In this document: in pieces, positions 121 through 9,718 of the stretch | How positions within the stretch are numbered: position 1 is the stretch's first letter | How the letters are laid out: every line of letters begins with the position of its first letter | IMG/VR virus record: IMGVR_UViG_3300006072_001582 | Reading direction: 5' to 3' (one strand) | Length of the DNA: 13,403 nucleotides | Source of the DNA: a virus | Position numbers and translations under genes: made by a program | Notes under the pieces: model-generated | Told to the model about the DNA's origin: nothing | What the model saw: only the letters and a program-made list of their open reading frames with translations | The model's database searches: none

Positions 121-147
121 AGTGTCCTCCTCAGGACTGGTTTAGTT
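100..147. repeat. copy A of an exact 48-nt direct repeat (minus-strand sense: aactaaaccagtcctgaggaggacactATGAAGGAAGTAACAACGATC), spanning RBS, start codon and the first 7 codons
   Basis: The plus-strand string gatcgttgttacttccttcatagtgtcctcctcaggactggtttagtt occurs identically at 100-147 and 548-595. Flanking sequence diverges immediately on both sides. Confidence 0.9.
126..132 (-). promoter_or_regulatory. Shine-Dalgarno GAGGAGG for the partial gene at 1-120
   Basis: cctcctc on the plus strand is GAGGAGG on the minus strand, 5 nt upstream of the ATG at 120-118. Confidence 0.5.
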
Positions 148-199: not shown

Positions 200-568
200 T
201 TACTGCTCAGCCTGAGCAGCGTTGAGCTCAGCCATAGCAGCGTAGAACTTAGCCCAAGCAGCCTTGACCTCAGGCTTAGACAAAGCAGCGTCGTACTTAG
301 CCAAAGCAGCGTGGTACTCAGCCCAAGCATCGTCGAACTCAGCCTCGGCAGCCTTGAACTCAGCCTGAGCAGCGTAGTACTCAGCCTTAGCAGCGTCACG
401 CTTAGCCCAAGCAGCGTCCTGCTTAGCCTCGTACTTAGCCTCAACAGCCTCGTACGCAGCCAAAGCAGCCTCGTACTCAGCCTTAGCCTCAGCAGTCATG
501 AGCTCAGCCGCAGCAGCGTAGTGCTCAACCAAAGCCTTAGCAGCGTCGATCGTTGTTACTTCCTTCAT
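200..568 (-). CDS. Ala-rich (about 45% Ala) acidic protein, probably alpha-helical, built on a 7-residue repeat with the consensus pattern x-A-A-x-A-x-aromatic
   Basis: 122-aa ORF with ATG at 566-568 and TAA at 200-202, preceded by a GAGGAGG RBS at 574-580. Aromatic residues (Y/F/W) recur every 7 residues at positions 32, 39, 46, 64, 71, 78, 85 and 92, and again at 54 with an 8-residue gap. The heptads read AEYEAAL, AAYEAVE, AKYEAKQ and so on. The overlapping frames 142-444(-) and 311-601(+) are low-complexity shadows of the same repeat. Confidence 0.7.
   Translation of the reverse strand: MKEVTTIDAAKALVEHYAAAAELMTAEAKAEYEAALAAYEAVEAKYEAKQDAAWAKRDAAKAEYYAAQAEFKAAEAEFDDAWAEYHAALAKYDAALSKPEVKAAWAKFYAAMAELNAAQAEQ
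215..545. repeat. imperfect 21-nt periodic tandem repeat at the DNA level, underlying the heptad repeats of the 200-568 protein
   Basis: Units of the form agcagcgt(a/c/g)gtactcagcc(t/c)tagc / cagcctcgtac recur about every 21 nt (for example 281-301, 302-322, 365-385, 386-406). The base composition is dominated by gca/gcc/gcg strings. Confidence 0.6.
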
Positions 569-938: not shown

Positions 939-1289
939 ACAGCTGTACGGTGCTGTAGTTCAGCAACATACAGGTGATTGCTAGGACCATGAGTTCTCAG
1001 CCTCACTTGGACATTGTGCCCAAGGACGCAAAGAAGTTCATAATCTTTTGCTAGCGTGTAACTAACACGCAATCCAAGGCGTGAAATAGGATGGTAGGTT
1101 TTGCCATTTCCAGAACTAAAGGGTTTTAGAGGAGTGCCTTGAGAGGGGCCTAAAAGGCTCTGTAAGGCTCGCCAATAGGGGTCCCAATGGGAGCGTATAG
1201 AAACGCCTTTAAAAAATGGCGGGCAGCCCTATGGGGTATTCGATAGAGCAGGCGTTGAGATCGTACTGGTAAGAATTAAAAATGCCGGA

Positions 1290-1416
1290 GGCCTTGGCCA
1301 CGTATGAAATACTAGGTGCACTAAAGTAGATAGAAAAAAAGAGAGAATAATGTAAATACATATAGTTCTTGGTATAGGGGATAGCAATCGTTCTACTATC
1401 TACAAAGGGCTACACC
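1290..1416 (+). promoter_or_regulatory. AT-rich leader region, probably carrying the promoter for the plus-strand gene block
   Basis: GC content drops sharply here (gaaaaaaagagagaataatgtaaatacatatagttcttggtatagg), immediately upstream of the first plus-strand gene. No perfect -35/-10 pair was identified by eye. Confidence 0.25.
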
Positions 1417-2082
1417 ATGGCACAATTCAACGACTGGTCAAAGAGCTACCAGAACTCACTTGGCAATGCAAAAATGGCGGCGATTAGAATCGCTGAGAAT
1501 AGATACCAAACGCGTGATGAATACGAAAAGAACAAGCCTAACGTCCCTAATGCAAGAATGGTTGATGAAGTCCGTAATAACCACAATGACGTTATGGACA
1601 GCATTGGGAAGTTCCAGCAAGGCGTTGGCAAAATTAATGAGATGCACCAAGAAGTACTGAAGCGCACACAACCAGGCGTTAACCAAAAGAGCCTTGTGGA
1701 ACACTATAGTGATCTTATGGAAAAGCATTTCCCCACAGAGCAGACAAGCACAAAGAGCAAGGCTCCTCAGACAAACATTAGCAAAGAAGTAACAAATCCT
1801 AACGTTCCTCTTAATTCAAGAGTGAAAATGATGCAAGACCCAGACACTAAGTACGACCCACAAGTCTACAAGCACGTTCGCGATGTGCCACCACTTAAGC
1901 CTAAGAGTGCTTCTTTCGCTGAGCGTTACGCCAACGATAACTCAATGGGGGAAAATAAGCCTATGGATGGGCACATCCCAGGCAATTCTCGCTACTGCTA
2001 CAACTGTGGAAACACCCAAGACATTGTTTGGGACCCAAGTCAAGAATACGGTACTGGATGGATTTGCCGTGGTGGTTGCTAA
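1417..2082 (+). CDS. hypothetical protein (221 aa) with a C-terminal zinc-ribbon-like motif (CYNCGNTQ...WICRGGC). Its N-terminus (NDWSKSY) resembles the WSKRYAAE motif of the 4188-5202 paralogs.
   Basis: Long ORF, the first in the plus-strand block. Cys motif is C-x2-C-x17-C-x3-C at the C-terminus. The minus-strand overlapping ORFs (1446-1667, 1456-1728) look like shadows. Confidence 0.7.
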   Translation: MAQFNDWSKSYQNSLGNAKMAAIRIAENRYQTRDEYEKNKPNVPNARMVDEVRNNHNDVMDSIGKFQQGVGKINEMHQEVLKRTQPGVNQKSLVEHYSDLMEKHFPTEQTSTKSKAPQTNISKEVTNPNVPLNSRVKMMQDPDTKYDPQVYKHVRDVPPLKPKSASFAERYANDNSMGENKPMDGHIPGNSRYCYNCGNTQDIVWDPSQEYGTGWICRGGC

Positions 2083-2188
2083 CTAAGAGTCTAAACCCCT
2101 TATAACATAAGGGTAAAAGAAAATTCGGAATCGGGTCTAGGGCCGGTGACGCGCGGTGCCTGTTTTAACTTAACTAGGAGTACAACTT

Positions 2189-3304
2189 ATGTTCAACAGC
2201 AGAGAAGCTGCAAAACACGATAAGCAATTCAAGACTGGCGGACCTGCCAACGCTATGACGCTTATCTTCCAAGAGGGTACTGGCTACGCCACCCACAAGG
2301 AAGACCCTGAGTACTATCATGTGCCTCATGCTGCTGAGAAAGCCGCTAATCACTACATAGGTAGCCTTGGTGAGGGCGAAGAGCCCAATCCTGACGCAGT
2401 GCGTTTGTTTGGCTTGAAGCAAAGCAAAAAGGGCGACTGGTATCACAGTCGCGCTCACTCGCAGCTTGCCAACGTTAAAACCGCAAGTGACTACATGACC
2501 GTTGCTGTTCGCAACAAGACCACTGGTAAGCCTTACAAGCTCGAGCAGGGTATCCATCAACCTACTATGATGATTGCTCCCAGCGAAGAGGGCCACCTGG
2601 ATGATCGTGCTTTCCGTGCCGGTGAACACGTGAATGCAAAGACTGGTGAGCGTTTGATGGTCCACCCACTCTCAGCTTTGGGCCAATCGCACATTGAAAC
2701 GATCATGGCATTCAACGAGGGTAAGCGTAATGGCATCAAGGACCCTAAGTTCTACCGAGATGCCATGAAAACTGTCAGTGATCACACCCATGGTGACCTT
2801 GCAGTGCACCACGCATTCAACCACACCATCAATAACATGTGCAATACGCACGATGCTATCGATCCTGTTGAGCAAAATGTCATCGATCAGGGTAAAACTG
2901 CCCGTTTTGTTAAGTGTTTCTGCCCATACTGCGTTGTAAATGACAGTACTCACCCCACAAACCAGCTTTGGGACATGCAACACCACGAAGAAGCAGCCAA
3001 AAGAACTCAAGATCCCAAGATTAGAGCCGCTTATTTCGCTGGTTTCCCCGTTTCTAAGGAAGCTGGAGAGTTTGGTAAGGTCGGAAGACGTTCACACCAC
3101 CGTGTTTTGTATGGTACGAAGGCTGAACAGACCATTATCAACCACCATGTCAACTTTAGACAGGACGAAGACAACCATGCAGCTGTAGTTGCACCAAGAG
3201 TACGTCATCGTGCGAGAGGTGGAGAGGGTGTTTCTCACCTTTACAGTCCTTCAACAGCTATAAATAGAGCTGTTCACGCTGATGATAGCTACTCTGGCGA
3301 ATAA
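2189..3304 (+). CDS. hypothetical His-rich protein (371 aa) containing a CFCPYC motif
   Basis: Long ORF with an AGGAG RBS at 2176-2180, 8 nt before the ATG. No recognisable catalytic motif. Many His and HH pairs suggest metal binding. Confidence 0.75.
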   Translation: MFNSREAAKHDKQFKTGGPANAMTLIFQEGTGYATHKEDPEYYHVPHAAEKAANHYIGSLGEGEEPNPDAVRLFGLKQSKKGDWYHSRAHSQLANVKTASDYMTVAVRNKTTGKPYKLEQGIHQPTMMIAPSEEGHLDDRAFRAGEHVNAKTGERLMVHPLSALGQSHIETIMAFNEGKRNGIKDPKFYRDAMKTVSDHTHGDLAVHHAFNHTINNMCNTHDAIDPVEQNVIDQGKTARFVKCFCPYCVVNDSTHPTNQLWDMQHHEEAAKRTQDPKIRAAYFAGFPVSKEAGEFGKVGRRSHHRVLYGTKAEQTIINHHVNFRQDEDNHAAVVAPRVRHRARGGEGVSHLYSPSTAINRAVHADDSYSGE

Positions 3305-3330
3305 ATTTTAAAGTTTTATCTTAAAATCTA

Positions 3331-3360
3331 TTGACAAAATTTAAAAAATCCTCTTATATA
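3331..3360 (+). promoter_or_regulatory. sigma70-type promoter: TTGACA (3331-3336), a spacer of about 18 nt, then TATATA (3355-3360), followed by an extended TATATATAAC
   Basis: A perfect -35 hexamer TTGACA and a TA-rich -10 sit in a 72-bp intergenic gap of extremely low GC, directly upstream of the RBS AAGGA (3368-3372) and the ATG at 3377. Confidence 0.55.
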
Positions 3361-3376
3361 TATAACTAAGGAAAAC

Positions 3377-3769
3377 ATGTCAAACAACTGTGACTGTGAA
3401 ACTTGCAAGAACATAGCAAAGTACAGTGATACTACAGAGAAAAGTGCATATGTCTCCCGGTTTAAGGAGAGTATTGCCCAGATTTCCTCTCTTTCAGATG
3501 ATTTCTCCATCGATAAGCCAAAAGATGACGATGAAGACCACACTTATCGTATTAACGTAAGTGAATACTGTCAGCATGACGGTGTTTTTGTAGAATATTC
3601 AAGAGAAATCACCTTTTCTGCTTTCCAGATGATCATGGAAGAGCTTTTTTCGTCAGATGAAGACGATTTTGACCTAGATAACGACGAATATGAAGATGAT
3701 ATACGCGTTTTTGGCAGTTTAGACGAAGTTATTGACTACCTTCAGCAAGATAGAAGGGAAAAAGACTAA
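3377..3769 (+). CDS. highly acidic small protein (130 aa) with an N-terminal C-x-C-x2-C motif and Asp/Glu-rich C-terminal half
   Basis: The ORF follows the promoter and RBS above. It reads MSNNCDCETCKN..., then DDDEDH, SSDEDDFDLDNDEYEDD. The stop overlaps the next start (TAATG at 3767-3771). Confidence 0.75.
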   Translation: MSNNCDCETCKNIAKYSDTTEKSAYVSRFKESIAQISSLSDDFSIDKPKDDDEDHTYRINVSEYCQHDGVFVEYSREITFSAFQMIMEELFSSDEDDFDLDNDEYEDDIRVFGSLDEVIDYLQQDRREKD

Positions 3770-4191
3770 TGACCGTCGAAGAACACGACCAGAACATCAC
3801 TCATCATTACACCGTTCACTATCCACCTCACCCAGAGCGTGAAGATGACCCACATTACGTCGATTTTCACCATTTCCGTGAGAAAACGAAGGCAACAGCT
3901 AAATGTGCTATCGGTGAACACCGCAATGACTTCAGTGAGTGCGACTCTGAGCACCCTTTGGAGCTTCACCACACTCATATTGAGTTCTCATTGCAGAATG
4001 GCGTCGATCTTAAGTGGCTCGAAGTCGATTACCCCGGCGTTAGCGACCCAGACACCGTTGGTGCATGGGTAGAGAGCGCAACAAACCTGGAATGGCTATG
4101 CCTTTTCCACCACAGAGGTCATGGTGGCAAACACGTCACAGCTTACAGTGACTTTGAGGCAGCAAAATACGTGAGAGGACTCATCAAATGA
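3769..4191 (+). CDS. His-rich HNH-like nuclease fold protein (140 aa)
   Basis: The sequence ...CAIGEHRNDFSEC...LELHHTHIEFSLQNGVDL...ATNLEWLCLFHHRGHGGKH fits the HNH pattern: C...C, HH, N, then N-L-x-x-L-C-x-x-H-H...H. It is translationally coupled at both ends (TAATG at 3767, ATGA at 4188). Confidence 0.55.
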   Translation: MTVEEHDQNITHHYTVHYPPHPEREDDPHYVDFHHFREKTKATAKCAIGEHRNDFSECDSEHPLELHHTHIEFSLQNGVDLKWLEVDYPGVSDPDTVGAWVESATNLEWLCLFHHRGHGGKHVTAYSDFEAAKYVRGLIK

Positions 4192-4379
4192 GTAATTGGT
4201 CTAAAAGATACGCAGCAGAAAGCTGTTCATGCCATGGCTGGCCTAAACTGCAATGCCCTAACACTACTGAAGCAGAAAAACACATTATTTCTGAACTGAG
4301 TAGACAAGAAGGGCCATCTATTGGACAAGAACACTCACGCAGTAAAGAAGTAGCCGATTGGATCCTTGGAGAAGATTAA
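4188..4379 (+). CDS. small Cys-containing protein (63 aa), paralog 1 of the N-terminal WSKRYAAE-motif family
   Basis: N-terminus MSNWSKRYAAES, then SCSCHGWPKLQCP. The start overlaps the upstream stop (ATGA) and the stop overlaps the next start (TAATG). Confidence 0.7.
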   Translation: MSNWSKRYAAESCSCHGWPKLQCPNTTEAEKHIISELSRQEGPSIGQEHSRSKEVADWILGED

Positions 4380-4834
4380 TGAATTGGAAAAGAAGATACG
4401 CAGCTGAAGATACCTTTGGTTATGGTGATCCACACTACTTTGAGAAGCTGATTGATCACGCCAACTCAGGCAACCCCAAGCTTATTCAAAAGAAGCATGT
4501 TGATGATGCTAGGCGACACGGTATTACCGAAGACGAAATGATGCATGCCTATACCCAGGGTCACAATATCAGTTTATATGTTAGTGCACGTGCACGCAAT
4601 GATCCATGGCTTGGTGGCCCAGAAGCTTTAGAGCCCAGACTGCTAGCTACACATGATGAAGCGATTGACGCTCTCAACAAAAATGTTATTCCCAATCACT
4701 ATAGCTTGCTTAGATCAGTTGGAGAAACAATAGTCAATGGACGTCATAACCCCAACCCAACACCGCTGAGCCACGATGCTGCTGTAGCAAAATCAGGCAA
4801 GATGACTCCGTCAGAACGACAGAAATACTTCTAA
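4379..4834 (+). CDS. hypothetical protein (151 aa), paralog 2 of the WSKRYAAE-motif family
   Basis: N-terminus MNWKRRYAAED. I prefer the start at ATG 4379 over the upstream in-frame ATG 4358 because it reproduces the paralog N-terminus and has GGAGAAG 6 nt upstream. TAATG overlap at both ends. Confidence 0.7.
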   Translation: MNWKRRYAAEDTFGYGDPHYFEKLIDHANSGNPKLIQKKHVDDARRHGITEDEMMHAYTQGHNISLYVSARARNDPWLGGPEALEPRLLATHDEAIDALNKNVIPNHYSLLRSVGETIVNGRHNPNPTPLSHDAAVAKSGKMTPSERQKYF

Positions 4835-5202
4835 TGTCTTGGTCAGAACGTTACGCTGCTCGTCCTGACCAATGTCAGCTCTGTGGTGCATCAGATGATG
4901 GCACCCACACAATCGTTAGCAGCGGTAGGTGCAAAGACACTACCGATTGCGAGAACACGCAGAAGTACTTAGCAGAGAACCCACAGCCAGAGCCTCCTAA
5001 GAAAACTAGGAAAGCACCTTACGTAGACCGCAAGGGTATGGCTGCATGTGCTCATGGCGACTGCCAAGGTAAGAAGTACGAAGCAAAATACATGCATTGG
5101 TCTGATTCTTCAGTGCCAAGGCCATATTGCAACACTCACTCGTTCCTTGCAGGCAAAACTGGTTTGACTTTTAGTCAATGGAAAGATGTTTATGGGAGAT
5201 AA
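4834..5202 (+). CDS. Cys-rich basic protein (122 aa), paralog 3 of the WSKRYAAE-motif family
   Basis: N-terminus MSWSERYAARPD, then CQLCG...GRCKDTTDC...CAHGDCQGKKY...YCNTH. TAATG overlap with the upstream gene. Confidence 0.7.
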   Translation: MSWSERYAARPDQCQLCGASDDGTHTIVSSGRCKDTTDCENTQKYLAENPQPEPPKKTRKAPYVDRKGMAACAHGDCQGKKYEAKYMHWSDSSVPRPYCNTHSFLAGKTGLTFSQWKDVYGR

Positions 5203-5204
5203 TA

Positions 5205-5933
5205 ATGACTGATCGTATTGTTGGTAAATTAGGTAAGCTAGATCCTAAGCGCCCTGCTGGGTTGCACATGCTTGCTTTCTATCAGGGCAACCCGTTGCCA
5301 GCTGCACCAGAGAGCGTAGCAGTGCCAAACGTAGATAATTGGGGAATGTTAGGAAATGATAAATATGGGGATTGTACTTTTGCTGGTATTGTTCACGCCA
5401 GAATGGCTAACGCTGCTTTCTTACAACTTACAGAAGGATTCCCTTCTGACACCGAAGTCGAGCAAAGTTATCTCAATTATACGAATGGACAAGATGCTGG
5501 AGCGGTCGAGGCGGACCTACTAAAGTACTGGCAGACCAACGGCTTGTTCAACACAAAGCTTGCTGCGTTCGCCCCTACTGACCATGCTGACCTTGATGAG
5601 CTCCGTAGCGTAATTGCCTCATATGGGCTTGTATACATTGGTGTAAAGCTCCCAGTCACCTTCCAGCAGCAATTCCTTGACAACCAGCCATGGGACCTTA
5701 CAGGCACTCCTGCTGACAATCAGATCGAAGGTGGCCACTGTGTCATCCTCGTAGGTTACGACAAGGACTACGCTGAATGTATTACCTGGGGTAAAGTGCA
5801 GAAGGTAACGTGGAGATGGCTGCAAAGCTACATGGAAGAGAGCTGGGCTCTCATCACTCCAGAGATTGTTGAAAAGGGTCAATATGGCGATATGCGCCTT
5901 GAAGACCTCACTACTGACCTAGGAAAACTATAA
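5205..5933 (+). CDS. papain-like (C1-type) cysteine peptidase, 242 aa
   Basis: Motif order and spacing are as in the papain fold. They are NDKYGDC-TFAG (Asn/Gln six residues before the catalytic Cys), GGHCVILVGYD (compare papain HAVAAVGY) and ECITWGKV (compare NSWG). I prefer the start at ATG 5205 (GGGAGA 7 nt upstream) over the in-frame ATG 5178, which overlaps the previous gene. Confidence 0.55.
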   Translation: MTDRIVGKLGKLDPKRPAGLHMLAFYQGNPLPAAPESVAVPNVDNWGMLGNDKYGDCTFAGIVHARMANAAFLQLTEGFPSDTEVEQSYLNYTNGQDAGAVEADLLKYWQTNGLFNTKLAAFAPTDHADLDELRSVIASYGLVYIGVKLPVTFQQQFLDNQPWDLTGTPADNQIEGGHCVILVGYDKDYAECITWGKVQKVTWRWLQSYMEESWALITPEIVEKGQYGDMRLEDLTTDLGKL

Positions 5934-7012
5934 TGGCTACTATCCCACCAAGACTTAATGAGATCCTTGAAGAACAAGGTGACAAGGTTCGAATTGTTGC
6001 TAACGTTGGCCCAATGCAATACAAGACTGGTGGCACGTTCTCTGGTCTTCTTGTTGAAGCAATGGTTGGAGACGAAAGAATCGGTTATTTCACTGCTGAA
6101 AAGCAAGCTAGTGGCAACTACATCATGGATGGTGTTTACGTCGAGCCAGAATACCGAAACCAAGGCATTGCAACAGAAATGCTGCGCAAAGCGCACGCAA
6201 CTGTTAACGTTATTCCTTATGCATTGACAGATAACCAAGTTTACCAGTCAGAAGCTGGTAAGGGGTTCGCTGCTAAGGAACTTCGCATGGTCACAGCAAG
6301 CACAATTGTGACTGCTGGTCCTCTTCTTGCTATCCCAGAGCTTCTTGGTGCTGGAGAAGCAGTCGCTGGCGCTGGAGAGGCCGCTGCAGGTGCAGAAGGT
6401 GGTGGCCTTAGCGATGCATTGAAGAACTTGCCTAGTAGCAACTCAAGCGGTAATGAAAATGGCGACAATAGCAATGATATCAACAATACGCCAGATTCTG
6501 GTGGTGGACAGAGCTTTGCAAGCCCTGCTAACCCCGTAGTTGGTAGCATCATGCCTCTCGAGACTCACCCATTGGCTCCTACTAAGCCAATCACAGTTCC
6601 ACCTTTCACTGTTCCTGGTAAGCCATCAAAGACTCCTCCTAGCACACCACAACCATCTCCCACAACTTGGCAGCCAGCTCCTAAAACAATTGGTGATAAA
6701 ACAGAAGCTATGCCAGAACCTTCTCTTGAAGAAGAAACTTCTACTAAGAGTGAGCAAGAGACTAGTAACCCACCACAACAGAAAACTAAGCTTGAAACTG
6801 GTCAAGAACCAATGCCTACAAAGCAAACGCCAGAAAAAGGGTCATCTGGTCCTGGAGCAGGAATTAACCTTGAGCTTAATTTCCCACAAACTATATCTAA
6901 CTTCCCAACGCCAGCTCGACCAATCACTGGTAGCAGCAATAGATTAATTGATTTGTTGAATGAAGATCGTTTCAATTCAACTAACAATGACAAACCAACC
7001 AGCTGGGAATAA
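5933..7012 (+). CDS. N-terminal GNAT-family acetyltransferase-like domain (about 125 aa) fused to a long Pro/Thr/Ser/Gly/Glu-rich tail (about 230 aa) predicted to be disordered
   Basis: GNAT motif A is recognisable: VYVEPEYRNQGIATEMLRKA, matching V-x-V-x-P-E-x-R-x-x-G-I-A. The rest of the protein is GAGEAVAGAGEAAAGAEGGG, NSSGNENGDNSNDINN, PPFTVPGKPSKTPPSTPQPSPTTWQPAPK and similar. TAATG overlap with the upstream peptidase gene. Confidence 0.55.
   Translation: MATIPPRLNEILEEQGDKVRIVANVGPMQYKTGGTFSGLLVEAMVGDERIGYFTAEKQASGNYIMDGVYVEPEYRNQGIATEMLRKAHATVNVIPYALTDNQVYQSEAGKGFAAKELRMVTASTIVTAGPLLAIPELLGAGEAVAGAGEAAAGAEGGGLSDALKNLPSSNSSGNENGDNSNDINNTPDSGGGQSFASPANPVVGSIMPLETHPLAPTKPITVPPFTVPGKPSKTPPSTPQPSPTTWQPAPKTIGDKTEAMPEPSLEEETSTKSEQETSNPPQQKTKLETGQEPMPTKQTPEKGSSGPGAGINLELNFPQTISNFPTPARPITGSSNRLIDLLNEDRFNSTNNDKPTSWE
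6314..7009 (+). other. low-complexity coding segment (Pro/Thr/Ser/Gly/Gln/Glu-rich) within the 5933-7012 gene
   Basis: Translation is dominated by P, T, S, G, E, Q, N with no hydrophobic core. The shadow ORFs 6241-6552(-), 6540-6947(+) and 6626-6826(-) arise from this region. Confidence 0.6.
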
Positions 7013-7047
7013 GAGTTAAAATAGCCCCCAAGGCGCACTAGTCATTG

Positions 7048-8980: not shown

Positions 8981-9007
8981 TGTTTGAGGAAAAAGAAAGA
9001 TTCCATT

Positions 9008-9718
9008 ATGAACTACGAAAATATTGAGATTGAAGCCAAGACCGCAGCTGCTGATGCACGCTGGTTTAATGGTACCTCAGAGAGCATCTTGACACGTCTT
9101 GACAGGCTGCAGGACATTCTGGACAAGACTCGTATGGCTGCTAGCAACCCTAACGTTGGTCAAAGAGAGATCGAGCGCTATGCTAACATCATCACCGAGC
9201 TTGGTGCTGAGAAGGAATCGCTCGAGAAGCTGGCTTCAGAGTACGTTGACTTTGACACTGAGGACTACCTCAATAGCTTGCCTGGTGGCACAATTGCTAA
9301 GGAATATCGCGTTAGCAGTGCTGGCACAAGTGACCTTGGCGAAGACGATGGCAGCCTTTTGTACCGTACAGCTGCTGGCATTGAGAACGAGTTTGAGTCA
9401 GCTGACTGGATCAACTTCGTTACCGCTGGTGCTGAGGTTTGGGTCGAAGACCAACACAACCGCCTTCTGGGCAGCCAGCTTGACACACGTGAAGCTGCTG
9501 TTTACTACGTAGAGCGTAAGACGCTTCCTATCCTTGACACTGTAAAGCGTGCATCTATCATTGAAAACTTTGTTGACAATGTAGAGATTTGCCGTCGTGC
9601 TAAGAACGAGGGTGCAGGCTTCCGCAGCATCAAGAGTGCTAGCGCAAACAAGCTGTCTGCTCGCCTTGTTGAGCAATCAATTGATGAGTCGTTCGGAGAT
9701 GGCCTTAACTGGCTGTAA
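9008..9718 (+). CDS. hypothetical protein (236 aa)
   Basis: Long ORF. ATG 9008 is preferred over the in-frame TTG at 8984. A purine-rich stretch (GAGGAAAAAGAAAGA) lies upstream. No recognisable motif. Confidence 0.65.
   Translation: MNYENIEIEAKTAAADARWFNGTSESILTRLDRLQDILDKTRMAASNPNVGQREIERYANIITELGAEKESLEKLASEYVDFDTEDYLNSLPGGTIAKEYRVSSAGTSDLGEDDGSLLYRTAAGIENEFESADWINFVTAGAEVWVEDQHNRLLGSQLDTREAAVYYVERKTLPILDTVKRASIIENFVDNVEICRRAKNEGAGFRSIKSASANKLSARLVEQSIDESFGDGLNWL

What the first reader, a model, noticed from the sequence alone, without database searches (positions are those of the whole stretch)
3305..3769. Near-consensus host-type promoter driving a very acidic Zn-finger protein that could be a DNA mimic
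TTGACA, a spacer of about 18 nt and TATATATATAAC lie in a 72-bp gap of very low GC, followed by a good RBS. This is the only clear sigma70-like promoter inside the plus-strand block, which marks the gene as early and strongly expressed. The product has an N-terminal CDCETC metal site and then a long poly-acidic region (DDDEDH, SSDEDDFDLDNDEYEDD). Small, highly acidic early phage proteins are frequently DNA mimics that block restriction or other DNA-binding defences (Ocr and ArdA are examples). It also heads the coupled operon that continues into the HNH gene and the tagged-protein family.
Basis: partly seen in the sequence, partly recalled or inferred. Interest (0 to 1): 0.5.

Follow-up and report, generated by a model that had tools for sequence, protein, structure and literature searches.

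The report
Conserved promoter driving orphan acidic phage protein
An uncultivated phage keeps a host-type promoter, at a fixed distance from the start codon, in front of a small, very acidic protein of unknown fold; it is a reasonable but unproven candidate for a host-interference decoy, and neither the zinc-finger nor the Ocr/ArdA-type DNA-mimic label is supported.

Summary
The sequence facts hold. TTGACA lies at 3331-3336, followed by an 18-nt spacer and a TA tract at 3355-3366, in a 72-bp gap of 17% GC. AAGGA precedes the ATG at 3377. The product is 130 aa, pI 4.09, net charge -23.

"Near-consensus" is only half right: the -10 is TATATA (4 of 6, no final T), and the mechanical scan does not list the site. 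Conservation rescues it. In 10 of 10 relatives (proteins 25-62% identical) TTGACA is exact, 40-41 nt from the start codon, with a TA-rich -10 at spacer 17-19.

The protein belongs to an orphan family of about 25 representatives, found only in metagenomic phage contigs. It has no Pfam, PHROG, NCBIfam, PADLOC or PDB relative and no convincing fold match.

- The Cys cluster is missing in 8 of 25 members.
- The acidic C-terminal half is present in all members.
- The most acidic loop is modelled with low confidence.
- There is no similarity to Ocr, ArdA, T7 gp1.2 or SPO1 Gp44.
- The HNH-like neighbour occurs widely without this gene, so the two are not an obligate pair.

Best reading (about 0.35): an early, abundant decoy that binds a basic nucleic-acid-binding surface through a flexible acidic segment. 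The function is untested. Interest is modest.

The parts
3305..3330 (+). AT-rich tract upstream of the -35. It may act as an UP element; this is inferred.
   Evidence: The 25 nt before TTGACA are 88% A+T in the window and 64-80% in nine relatives. The whole 72-bp gap has GC 0.17.
3331..3336 (+). -35 hexamer TTGACA (6 of 6)
   Evidence: Exact in 10 of 10 lineages, at a fixed 40-41 nt from the start codon, while flanking intergenic bases vary.
3355..3366 (+). TA tract TATATATATAAC. The usable -10 is TATATA at 3355-3360 (spacer 18, 4 of 6, no T at position 6). The TAAC end belongs to the phage-wide RBS context.
   Evidence: Relatives carry TATAGT (spacer 19) or TATATT (spacer 17-18), each 5 of 6 with A2 and T6. 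The AACTA..AGGA context recurs before many genes of L005.
3367..3369 (+). Inferred transcription start, 7-9 nt after the -10. This gives a leader of only about 8-10 nt.
   Evidence: Inferred from sigma-70 geometry (my own knowledge) and the fixed distance from the -35 to the ATG. No measurement.
3368..3372 (+). Shine-Dalgarno AAGGA
   Evidence: AAGGAAA is invariant in 8 of 8 aligned upstream regions.
3377..3769 (+). CDS of the 130-aa acidic protein, the founding member here of an orphan family
   Evidence: The family was found and aligned as A3.
3389..3406 (+). Codons for C5-D-C7-E-T-C10, an N-terminal Cys cluster that is dispensable within the family
   Evidence: At least 3 Cys in 16 of 25 members, 0-1 Cys in 8 of 25. 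pLDDT 45-58.
3398..3499 (+). Long amphipathic helix, residues 8-41 in model 2 (two helices, 7-15 and 19-39, in model 1), with the nearly invariant F29-K30 of the FKEN motif
3542..3646 (+). Best-modelled core, residues 56-90: a beta-hairpin (YRI.L.E..DG..EYSKEI) followed by a helix
   Evidence: pLDDT 87-95 for residues 61-90 in model 2. Conserved block in A3.
3650..3706 (+). Acidic loop, residues 92-110 (SSDEDDFDLDNDEYEDDIR): 58% D/E, one basic residue, two aromatics
   Evidence: The equivalent loop in all 25 members is 24-60% D/E with 0-3 K/R/H. Confidence is low in both models.
3707..3742 (+). Conserved C-terminal motif VFGSLDEVIDYL (residues 111-122): a short strand followed by the start of the last helix
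   Evidence: F112 is invariant; I119 and L122 are nearly invariant.
3767..3771 (+). TAATG stop/start overlap with the next gene
3769..4191 (+). Downstream 140-aa gene, HNH-like by motif only. It is co-transcribed but is not an obligate partner.
   Evidence: Invariant C46, C58, H67, H68, H70, N77, N106, C111, H114 and H115. The only family hit is phrog_8048 at E=0.0043. No Pfam or PDB hit. It is found without the acidic gene.

Best explanation
A promoter read by the host's housekeeping RNA polymerase lies in front of this gene. It has a perfect -35, a TA-rich -10 and an AT-rich upstream tract, all kept at a fixed 40-41 nt from the start codon. It probably yields an mRNA with a leader of only about 9 nt, beginning at the Shine-Dalgarno sequence. 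That mRNA drives high, probably immediate-early, synthesis of a 130-aa orphan protein and of the genes coupled behind it.

The protein has two poles. The N-terminal part is an optional Cys cluster followed by a long helix, and is neutral to basic in most relatives. The C-terminal part is a small beta-hairpin/helix core carrying a 17-28-residue acidic loop with aromatic residues and almost no basic ones, followed by a conserved acidic helix.

The most likely mechanism is stoichiometric decoy binding. The acidic C-terminal half would occupy the basic, nucleic-acid-binding surface of a host protein, either a defence enzyme or a DNA/RNA-handling protein. This would be a flexible mimic in the manner of SPO1 Gp44 or T7 gp5.9, not a rigid B-DNA-shaped mimic like Ocr or ArdA.

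Shown: the anatomy and conservation of the promoter; the composition and conservation of the acidic half; fast divergence; independence from the HNH-like gene. Inferred: early timing, the transcription start, the binding mode and the target.
For: Promoter:
- TTGACA is exact in 10 of 10 lineages at 40-41 nt from the start codon. A TA-rich hexamer lies at spacer 17-19, and the upstream tract is 64-88% A+T.
- The intergenic block is nearly identical in L005 and L009 although the proteins are only 56-62% identical.
- No other copy of the TTGACA-N(14-24)-TATATA pattern occurs on the gene strand in the nine loci searched, each up to 20 kb. In L005, none of the other intergenic regions printed shows such a promoter.
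- The better-scoring site at 9534 is not conserved.

Protein:
- pI 4.09, net -23.
- In all 25 family representatives the C-terminal half carries net -12 to -21, while the N-terminal half runs from -6 to +9.
- The acidic loop is 24-60% D/E with 0-3 basic residues, and 22 of 25 members have 1-3 aromatic residues in it.
- No enzyme or known-domain signature appears in Pfam, PHROGs, NCBIfam, PADLOC or PDB sequences.

Evolution and context:
- The gene is 25-56% identical between lineages in which the HNH-like, 242-aa and 236-aa neighbours are 65-90% identical.
- It heads a stretch where accessory genes are inserted and swapped.

Precedent: SPO1 Gp44 is an early phage protein with a DNA-binding N-terminus and a flexible domain that is 57% acidic and free of basic residues. 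It binds RNA polymerase (PMC8208478).
Against: - No experiment or expression data exist for this gene or its family.
- The models are of moderate quality: pLDDT 62.8 with pTM 0.53, and pLDDT 74.3 with pTM 0.32.
- The window's -10 lacks the conserved final T.
- The host is unknown, so the fit to its sigma factor is untested.
- No terminator separates the gene from the upstream ORF, so read-through transcription also reaches it.
- Acidity alone is a weak predictor of function.
Confidence: 0.35

Rival explanations
1. The protein is the partner of the co-translated HNH-like protein. It would act as an inhibitor, immunity protein or chaperone, made in matched amounts through the TAATG coupling, much as acidic immunity proteins neutralise colicin HNH DNases.
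For: - The stop and start overlap in the window. The same adjacency is seen in L015, L018/L019, L020, L024 and L031, with a 6-nt gap in L028.
- Both genes are present in every locus that carries the acidic gene.
- The acidic charge would suit a DNA-binding cleft. The colicin/Im analogy is from my own knowledge.
Against: - The HNH-like family is very large (2145 clusters at E<=0.001). It occurs with no acidic-family gene within 4 kb in three other phage contigs, where the upstream neighbours are neutral to basic (pI 7.1-10.1) and unrelated.
- It also occurs in ten bacterial genome or MAG contigs, mostly Actinomycetota, where the acidic family is absent from the 1-6 kb of flank fetched.
- Other genes are inserted between the two in L025, L027, L032 and the P0029 contig.
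- The two genes evolve at very different rates: 25-56% against 65-84% identity.
- The nuclease identity of the neighbour is itself unproven.
Confidence: 0.12
2. The protein is a nucleic-acid-binding regulator. The Cys cluster and the long, often basic N-terminal helix and linker would bind DNA or RNA, perhaps with a metal. The acidic half would serve oligomerisation or recruitment, making this an early transcription or translation switch rather than a decoy.
For: - The N-terminal half is net positive in 18 of 25 members, and the linker before the hairpin is net +1 to +6 in 19 of 25.
- At least 3 Cys are clustered within about 10 residues in 16 of 25 members.
- The gene is the first one behind the promoter.
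Against: - In the window protein, and in 2 other family members, the N-terminal half is net acidic (-6 in the window protein).
- The Cys cluster is dispensable in the family.
- No helix-turn-helix, zinc-ribbon or other binding domain is detected.
Confidence: 0.15
3. The protein binds divalent cations or acts as an acidic assembly chaperone. The D/E-rich loop, with its alternating pattern (GIDIDVDYDED in relatives), would bind Ca2+ or Mg2+, or would shield a basic phage protein, with no role against the host.
For: - DxDxD-type runs occur in the loop of many members.
- One member gives a sub-threshold hit to a Ca2+-binding domain (PF07492, E=0.0064).
- A Dps/ferritin gene lies in the same gene block.
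Against: - The loop sequence is poorly conserved and fits no defined Ca-binding motif.
- The Pfam hit concerns one member of 25 and is below threshold.
- Fast divergence and a dedicated strong promoter are not expected of an assembly factor.
Confidence: 0.08
4. The conserved AT-rich block is not a promoter. It could be a translation-initiation enhancer, a processing site or another DNA signal, and the gene would simply be read from an upstream promoter.
For: - The window's -10 is 4 of 6 without the final T, and the scan does not list the site.
- No terminator precedes it.
- Part of the conserved block (TAACTAAGGA) is the phage's general RBS context.
- The host and its sigma specificity are unknown.
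Against: - An invariant TTGACA lies exactly where a -35 should be relative to a TA-rich hexamer in 10 of 10 lineages, although the spacer sequence varies.
- Half of the lineages have a 5-of-6 -10 with A2 and T6 at spacer 17-19.
- Other genes of these phages have the RBS context without TTGACA.
Confidence: 0.1

Closest known systems
T7 Ocr (gp0.3), a DNA-mimic inhibitor of Type I R-M and BREX (PMC3439906, PMC2806950, PMC7261183)
   Same: Similar size (117 aa against 130 aa here) and strongly acidic. It is the first gene behind strong host-type promoters: T7 promoters A1-A3 lie 175-427 nt upstream of gene 0.3.
ArdA anti-restriction proteins (PMC2731889)
   Same: Acidic, made early from an incoming mobile element, and proposed to compete with DNA.
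   Different: No Pfam ArdA hit and no structural match. ArdA mimics DNA extensively along its whole length (PMC2731889); nothing comparable is predicted here.
SPO1 Gp44, a host-takeover protein that inhibits RNA polymerase (PMC8208478)
   Same: An early phage protein with a bipolar design. Gp44 has a folded N-terminal DNA-binding part and a flexible domain that is 57% D/E and lacks basic residues. Here the loop is 58% D/E with one basic residue. This is the best analogy for a flexible, not rigid, mimic.
   Different: No homology (hhalign probability 0.09%). Gp44 is 237 aa with a 67-residue acidic domain; here the loop is 19 residues and is embedded in a folded core. DNA binding by the N-terminus has not been shown here.
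T7 gp5.9, a RecBCD inhibitor (PMC9836394, abstract only; its small size and acidity are from my own knowledge)
   Same: The paper's abstract describes gp5.9 as a phage-encoded inhibitor that targets RecBCD, a host DNA-processing complex. That gp5.9 is small and acidic is my own knowledge.
   Different: Not compared directly here. No such match appeared in the PDB fold or sequence searches.
T7 gp1.2, an inhibitor of host dGTPase (PDB 7u65)
Colicin DNase immunity proteins (Im7/Im9; my own knowledge)
   Same: A small acidic protein encoded next to an HNH-type nuclease gene.
   Different: The HNH-like gene is widespread without the acidic gene. Other genes are inserted between them in some lineages. 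There is no sequence relation to any PDB chain.

Membership tests
Sigma-70-type (housekeeping) promoter | -35 hexamer close to TTGACA | tested here: met
   6 of 6 at 3331-3336 and exact in 10 of 10 lineages.
Sigma-70-type (housekeeping) promoter | -10 hexamer close to TATAAT (A at position 2, T at position 6), 16-18 nt after the -35 | tested here: inconclusive
   The window has TATATA at spacer 18 (4 of 6, A2 present, T6 absent), and the scan does not list it. Five of the ten lineages compared have a 5-of-6 hexamer with A2 and T6 at spacer 17-19.
Sigma-70-type (housekeeping) promoter | Transcription starts there with host holoenzyme | not testable with these tools
   This needs 5'-end mapping, a reporter assay or in vitro transcription. 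The host is unknown.
Zinc finger / structural Zn site | Four conserved metal ligands (Cys/His) in a defined spacing, retained across homologues | tested here: not met
   The window protein has three clustered Cys (C5, C7, C10). Eight of 25 members have 0-1 Cys in the first 30 residues, and P0021 and P0024 have no Cys at all. No Zn-finger Pfam hit. A facultative metal site in the Cys-bearing members is not excluded.
Ocr (T7 gp0.3) family | Sequence or profile homology to Ocr | tested here: not met
   hhalign probability 0.35%. No Pfam hit for any of 25 members.
Ocr (T7 gp0.3) family | Rigid helical dimer whose acidic surface mimics bent B-DNA | tested here: not met
ArdA family | Sequence homology (Pfam ArdA) and an elongated three-domain mimic fold | tested here: not met
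T7 gp1.2-like dGTPase inhibitors | Homology or a robust fold match to gp1.2 | tested here: not met
SPO1 Gp44-like flexible mimics | Homology to Gp44 | tested here: not met
   hhalign probability 0.09%.
SPO1 Gp44-like flexible mimics | Highly acidic segment free of basic residues and predicted flexible, next to a folded part | tested here: met
   Residues 92-110 are 58% D/E with one K/R/H. The trait is family-wide. Confidence is low in both models. This is a resemblance in design, not membership.
DNA-mimic proteins (functional class) | Binds the DNA-binding site of a target protein in competition with DNA | not testable with these tools
   This needs binding or competition assays, or a confident complex model.
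HNH nuclease with cognate inhibitor pair | The two genes co-occur obligatorily | tested here: not met
   The HNH-like gene is found without the acidic gene in L033-L035 and L036-L045. Other genes are inserted between them in L025, L027, L032 and the P0029 contig.

The most novel reading that the evidence does not exclude
The family could be a previously unrecognised class of phage counter-defence or host-takeover protein from uncultivated phages. Its design would be bipolar: an optional metal-binding Cys cluster and a helix serve as anchor, and a short, aromatic-studded acidic loop on a new alpha/beta scaffold acts as a nucleic-acid decoy. It would be expressed from a minimal-leader, host-type promoter whose geometry is fixed across the clade.
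Probability: 0.25. Interest if true: 0.6.

Novelty: new member of a known kind. Interest (0 to 1): 0.35.

Why it matters
If the protein is a decoy inhibitor, it would add a new fold and a new target to the small catalogue of phage nucleic-acid mimics. It would also give an entry point into the biology of an abundant clade of uncultivated phages: contigs reach about 138 kb, and no cultured relative was found at the DNA level or for three of the five window proteins searched. The strictly conserved promoter is also a compact, testable regulatory part that may be portable. As it stands, this is one more small acidic phage protein of unknown function. Its value lies in being a prioritised candidate, not a discovery.

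Tried and rejected
- **Cultured relatives.** Megablast of the whole window and tblastn of the acidic protein, the HNH-like protein and the 236-aa protein against 50,697 phage records gave no match. No expression data can therefore be borrowed.
- **Family libraries.** Pfam, PHROGs, NCBIfam, PADLOC and PDB sequence searches, with both the single sequence and the profile, gave nothing significant.
- **Direct comparisons.** hhalign against Ocr, gp1.2 and SPO1 Gp44 was negative in all three cases.
- **Repeated phage promoter motif.** Rejected. The TTGACA..TATATA pattern occurs on the gene strand only in front of this gene in the nine loci searched.
- **Alternative promoter at 9534.** Rejected because it is not conserved.
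- **TATAAC as the -10.** Rejected. It lies at spacer 24 and is part of the general RBS context.
- **tRNA and Rfam scans of the window.** Empty.
- **Scan of bacterial genomes with the acidic-family alignment.** The HNH-like alignment was used instead.
- **Multimer prediction.** No job was available.
Full report
**1. What is in the sequence**

ORF 2189..3304 ends at 3304 and the next ATG is at 3377. The 72-bp gap between them has GC 0.17, against 0.463 for the window. Its elements, in order, are:
- an AT-rich tract;
- TTGACA at 3331-3336;
- an 18-nt spacer;
- the tract TATATATATAAC at 3355-3366;
- AAGGA at 3368-3372.

The ORF 3377..3769 encodes 130 aa. It begins MSNNCDCETC, contains DDDEDH at residues 50-55, and contains SSDEDDFDLDNDEYEDD at residues 92-108. 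The protein has pI 4.09, 36 D+E against 13 K+R, and net charge -23. This is the highest acidic fraction (0.28) among the 18 plus-strand ORFs tabulated, and the gene's GC is 0.38 against 0.45-0.49 for its immediate neighbours. Its stop overlaps the next start (TAATG, 3767-3771), and the following genes also overlap or abut.

**2. Is the promoter more than chance?**

Taken alone, it is not. The consensus scan finds 13 promoter-like sites against 18.2 expected in shuffles, and it does not list this one. At the usable spacing the -10 is TATATA, which is 4 of 6 and lacks the final T. TATAAC sits 24 nt from the -35, too far to serve. The scan's best plus-strand site is TTGACA-16-TATCAT at 9534-9561, inside ORF 8984..9718.

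Comparative data settle the matter. I recovered relatives of the acidic gene from metagenomic and viral contigs. In 10 of 10 lineages, whose proteins are only 25-62% identical to the window's, the following hold:
- TTGACA is exact.
- It lies 40-41 nt from the start codon.
- A TA-rich hexamer follows at spacer 17-19: TATATA in the window's clade, and TATAGT or TATATT (5 of 6, with A2 and T6) in the others.
- The 25 nt upstream are 64-88% A+T.

In L005 and L009 the block from TATTGACAA to the ATG is almost identical to the window's, although the coding sequence has diverged to 56-62% protein identity. In contrast, the TTGACA of the 9534 site is broken by synonymous changes in 4 of the 5 relatives aligned.

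The TTGACA..TATATA pattern occurs on the gene strand only at this position in the nine loci searched, each up to 20 kb. In L005, the other intergenic regions are mostly GC-rich and structured. Most of them share only the RBS context AACTA(G)TAAGGAG. That context explains the 'TAAC' end of the tract.

I conclude that this is a real, selectively maintained host-type promoter. 'Near-consensus' describes its -35 but not the window's -10. With standard geometry (my own knowledge), transcription would start at about 3367-3369. That would give a leader of only about 9 nt beginning at the Shine-Dalgarno sequence. This start site is inferred, not measured. No terminator precedes the promoter, so read-through from upstream is also possible.

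**3. The protein family**

The protein has no hit in Pfam, PHROGs (best E 0.046), NCBIfam, PADLOC or PDB sequences. It has no tblastn match in 50,697 deposited phage genomes. An exhaustive HMMER search of 1.84 billion representatives found 26 proteins at E<=0.001. Nearly all are 124-165 aa long and collinear with the query. I aligned 25 family sequences as A3.

Conserved features of the family are:
- F29-K30 of an FKEN motif in a long N-terminal helix;
- a block YRI.L.E..DG..EYSKEI..F.F..LL.E.F;
- an acidic loop;
- VF.SLDEVIDFL near the C-terminus.

Every member is acidic (pI 4.08-4.96), but the charge is polar. The C-terminal half carries net -12 to -21 in all 25 members, while the N-terminal half runs from -6 to +9. 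The loop between the invariant F91 and F112 is 17-28 residues long. It is 24-60% D/E, has 0-3 K/R/H, and in 22 of 25 members has 1-3 aromatic residues. The window's loop is at the extreme (58% D/E).

**4. The 'Zn finger'**

C5, C7 and C10 are real. However, at least 3 Cys occur in the first 30 residues in only 16 of 25 members. Eight members have 0-1, including P0003 (56% identical, NRDYESH in place of NCDCETC). P0021 and P0024 have no cysteine at all. Both structure models give the segment low confidence. A facultative metal site in some members cannot be excluded. It is not a defining or necessary feature, and no zinc-finger family is matched.

**5. Structure**

Two AlphaFold2 models were built.
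- Model 1 used 3 sequences and reached pLDDT 62.8 and pTM 0.53. Its topology is helix, three strands, helix, a disordered stretch at 88-107 (pLDDT <50), strand, helix.
- Model 2 used 25 sequences and reached pLDDT 74.3 and pTM 0.32. It shows one long helix at residues 8-41, a confident hairpin-plus-helix core (pLDDT 87-95 for residues 61-90), a low-confidence loop (56-60), and a C-terminal helix.

The fold searches gave the following.
- Foldseek against BFVD: best E 0.2.
- Profile comparisons with T7 Ocr, T7 gp1.2 and SPO1 Gp44, each taken from its genome record, gave probabilities of 0.35%, 1.0% and 0.09%.

The fold is therefore unassigned, and membership of any known mimic family fails. I could not obtain model coordinates to measure charge spacing.

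**6. Genomic context and the HNH question**

Gene order is conserved in every complete locus carrying the acidic gene. The order is:
1. a 370-470-aa protein;
2. a gap of about 70 nt holding the promoter;
3. the acidic gene;
4. the HNH-like 140-aa gene;
5. variable accessory genes;
6. a 242-aa putative cysteine protease (phrog_19005);
7. a GNAT acetyltransferase;
8. three conserved proteins;
9. a Dps/ferritin.

The acidic gene is 25-56% identical between lineages. By comparison, the HNH-like gene is 65-84% identical, the 242-aa gene 68-86%, and the 236-aa gene 78-90%. Fast evolution and a position at the head of a variable stretch fit a host-interaction role, but they do not prove one.

The neighbour has an HNH-like pattern of invariant residues: C46, C58, HH67-68, H70, N77, N106, C111 and HH114-115. 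Its only family hit is phrog_8048 at E=0.0043, with no Pfam or PDB relative. 'HNH' is therefore plausible but not established.

The neighbour is not an obligate partner of the acidic protein.
- Its family has 2145 clusters at E<=0.001.
- In three other phage contigs (70-72% identical HNH-like protein) no acidic-family gene lies within 4 kb, and the upstream neighbours are neutral to basic and unrelated.
- In ten bacterial genome or MAG contigs, mostly Actinomycetota and including Catenulispora isolates (GC 0.54-0.73), the acidic family is absent from the fetched flanks. The 242-aa gene co-occurs in three of these.
- Other genes are inserted between the pair in L025 and L027 (two oxygenase-looking ORFs), in L032 and in the P0029 contig.

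**7. Most likely mechanism**

I commit, at about 0.35, to the following. Host RNA polymerase reads the conserved promoter as soon as the DNA enters the cell. The short-leader mRNA with a strong RBS yields abundant protein. The protein uses its acidic C-terminal half, above all the aromatic-studded loop that lacks basic residues, to occupy a basic nucleic-acid-binding surface of a host protein. That target could be a defence nuclease or methyltransferase complex, a recombination or repair enzyme, RNA polymerase, or a nucleoid protein.

The nearest functional analogy is the flexible-mimic design of SPO1 Gp44. Gp44 has a DNA-binding N-terminus and a 57%-acidic flexible domain free of basic residues that binds RNA polymerase (PMC8208478). 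T7 gp5.9 is a second analogy (PMC9836394). The rigid Ocr and ArdA mimics fit less well (PMC3439906, PMC2731889).

- Shown: promoter conservation, family-wide charge polarity, rapid divergence, and independence from the HNH-like gene.
- Inferred: early timing, the transcription start, binding, and the target.

The rivals are an HNH partner (0.12), a nucleic-acid-binding regulator (0.15), a cation-binding protein or chaperone (0.08), and 'not a promoter' (0.10). The remaining probability is for something not yet imagined.

**8. Novelty and verdict**

The family is new to the curated libraries, has no recognisable fold, and is confined to uncultivated phages. As a kind of thing it is familiar: a small acidic protein behind a host-type promoter, with no known function. 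I class it as a new member of a known kind with modest interest (0.35). The promoter and the acidity are right. The Zn-finger label and the Ocr/ArdA-type mimicry are not supported, and the function is undetermined.

Noticed in passing
window 4188, 4379, 4834 and 7045 (ORF starts); L018 4853; L019 7032; L020 6857; L024 6854 and 7276; L028 6896; L027 7582-8781: The motif W-[SNK]-[EKR]-R-Y-A sits within the first 10 or so residues of several otherwise unrelated small ORFs downstream of the HNH-like gene (for example MSNWSKRYAAE, MNWKRRYAAE, MSWSERYAAR). A 399-aa ORF in L027 carries three internal copies (SWAQRYANN, YWSERYAKQ, NWKARYAAD). The attached proteins differ; those in L024 and L028 have a ParB-like DGHHR motif. 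It could be a cassette boundary, a targeting tag or a cleavage signal.
   Followed up: partly
window 3769-4191 and L033-L045: The HNH-like 140-aa protein is extremely widespread and conserved: 2145 clusters, and 65-84% identity across the loci that carry the acidic gene. It has 43-72% identical homologues in Actinomycetota genomes and MAGs, including Catenulispora isolates, and in three of these it lies near the 242-aa putative cysteine protease. This hints at actinobacterial hosts or prophages, and at a core rather than homing role.
   Followed up: partly
L005 1636-1708 (-) and 19060-19134 (+); L005 minus-strand intergenic regions 1571-7045: Relatives carry tRNA genes: tRNA-Asn with an unusual ATT anticodon, and tRNA-Asp GTC. 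They also have GC-rich, hairpin-rich spacers between the small minus-strand genes. These spacers have no sigma-70-like promoter, which is reminiscent of RNA-processing sites.
   Followed up: partly
window 124-137 and 572-585; ORF 200..568 (-): Two identical hairpin-plus-tail sequences (GTCCTCCTCAGGAC TGGTTTAGTT) lie 448 bp apart. They flank an Ala/Glu/Lys-rich repetitive ORF (AEAKAEYEAALAAYEA...).
   Followed up: no
window 9534-9561: TTGACA-16-TATCAT (11 of 12) lies inside ORF 8984..9718, about 160 nt upstream of the Dps/ferritin-like gene. The -35 is not conserved in 4 of the 5 relatives aligned, so it is probably a chance match.
   Followed up: yes
L025 6390-7166 and 7163-7951; L027 6390-7166: ORFs of 258-262 aa that look like 2OG-Fe(II) oxygenases (HTD...H motifs) are inserted, in tandem in L025, between the acidic gene and the HNH-like gene. 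This marks the junction as an insertion hot spot.
   Followed up: no
window 1073-1416: A non-coding, GC-rich region of 340 bp or more separates the minus-strand and plus-strand gene blocks. No tRNA, Rfam family or conserved promoter was found in it. In L005 the equivalent gap is 838 bp.
   Followed up: partly
window 2189-3304 and homologues: The 371-aa protein upstream is always present next to the acidic gene. It diverges even faster (23-48% identity) and varies in length (371-476 aa). It has no known domain.
   Followed up: no
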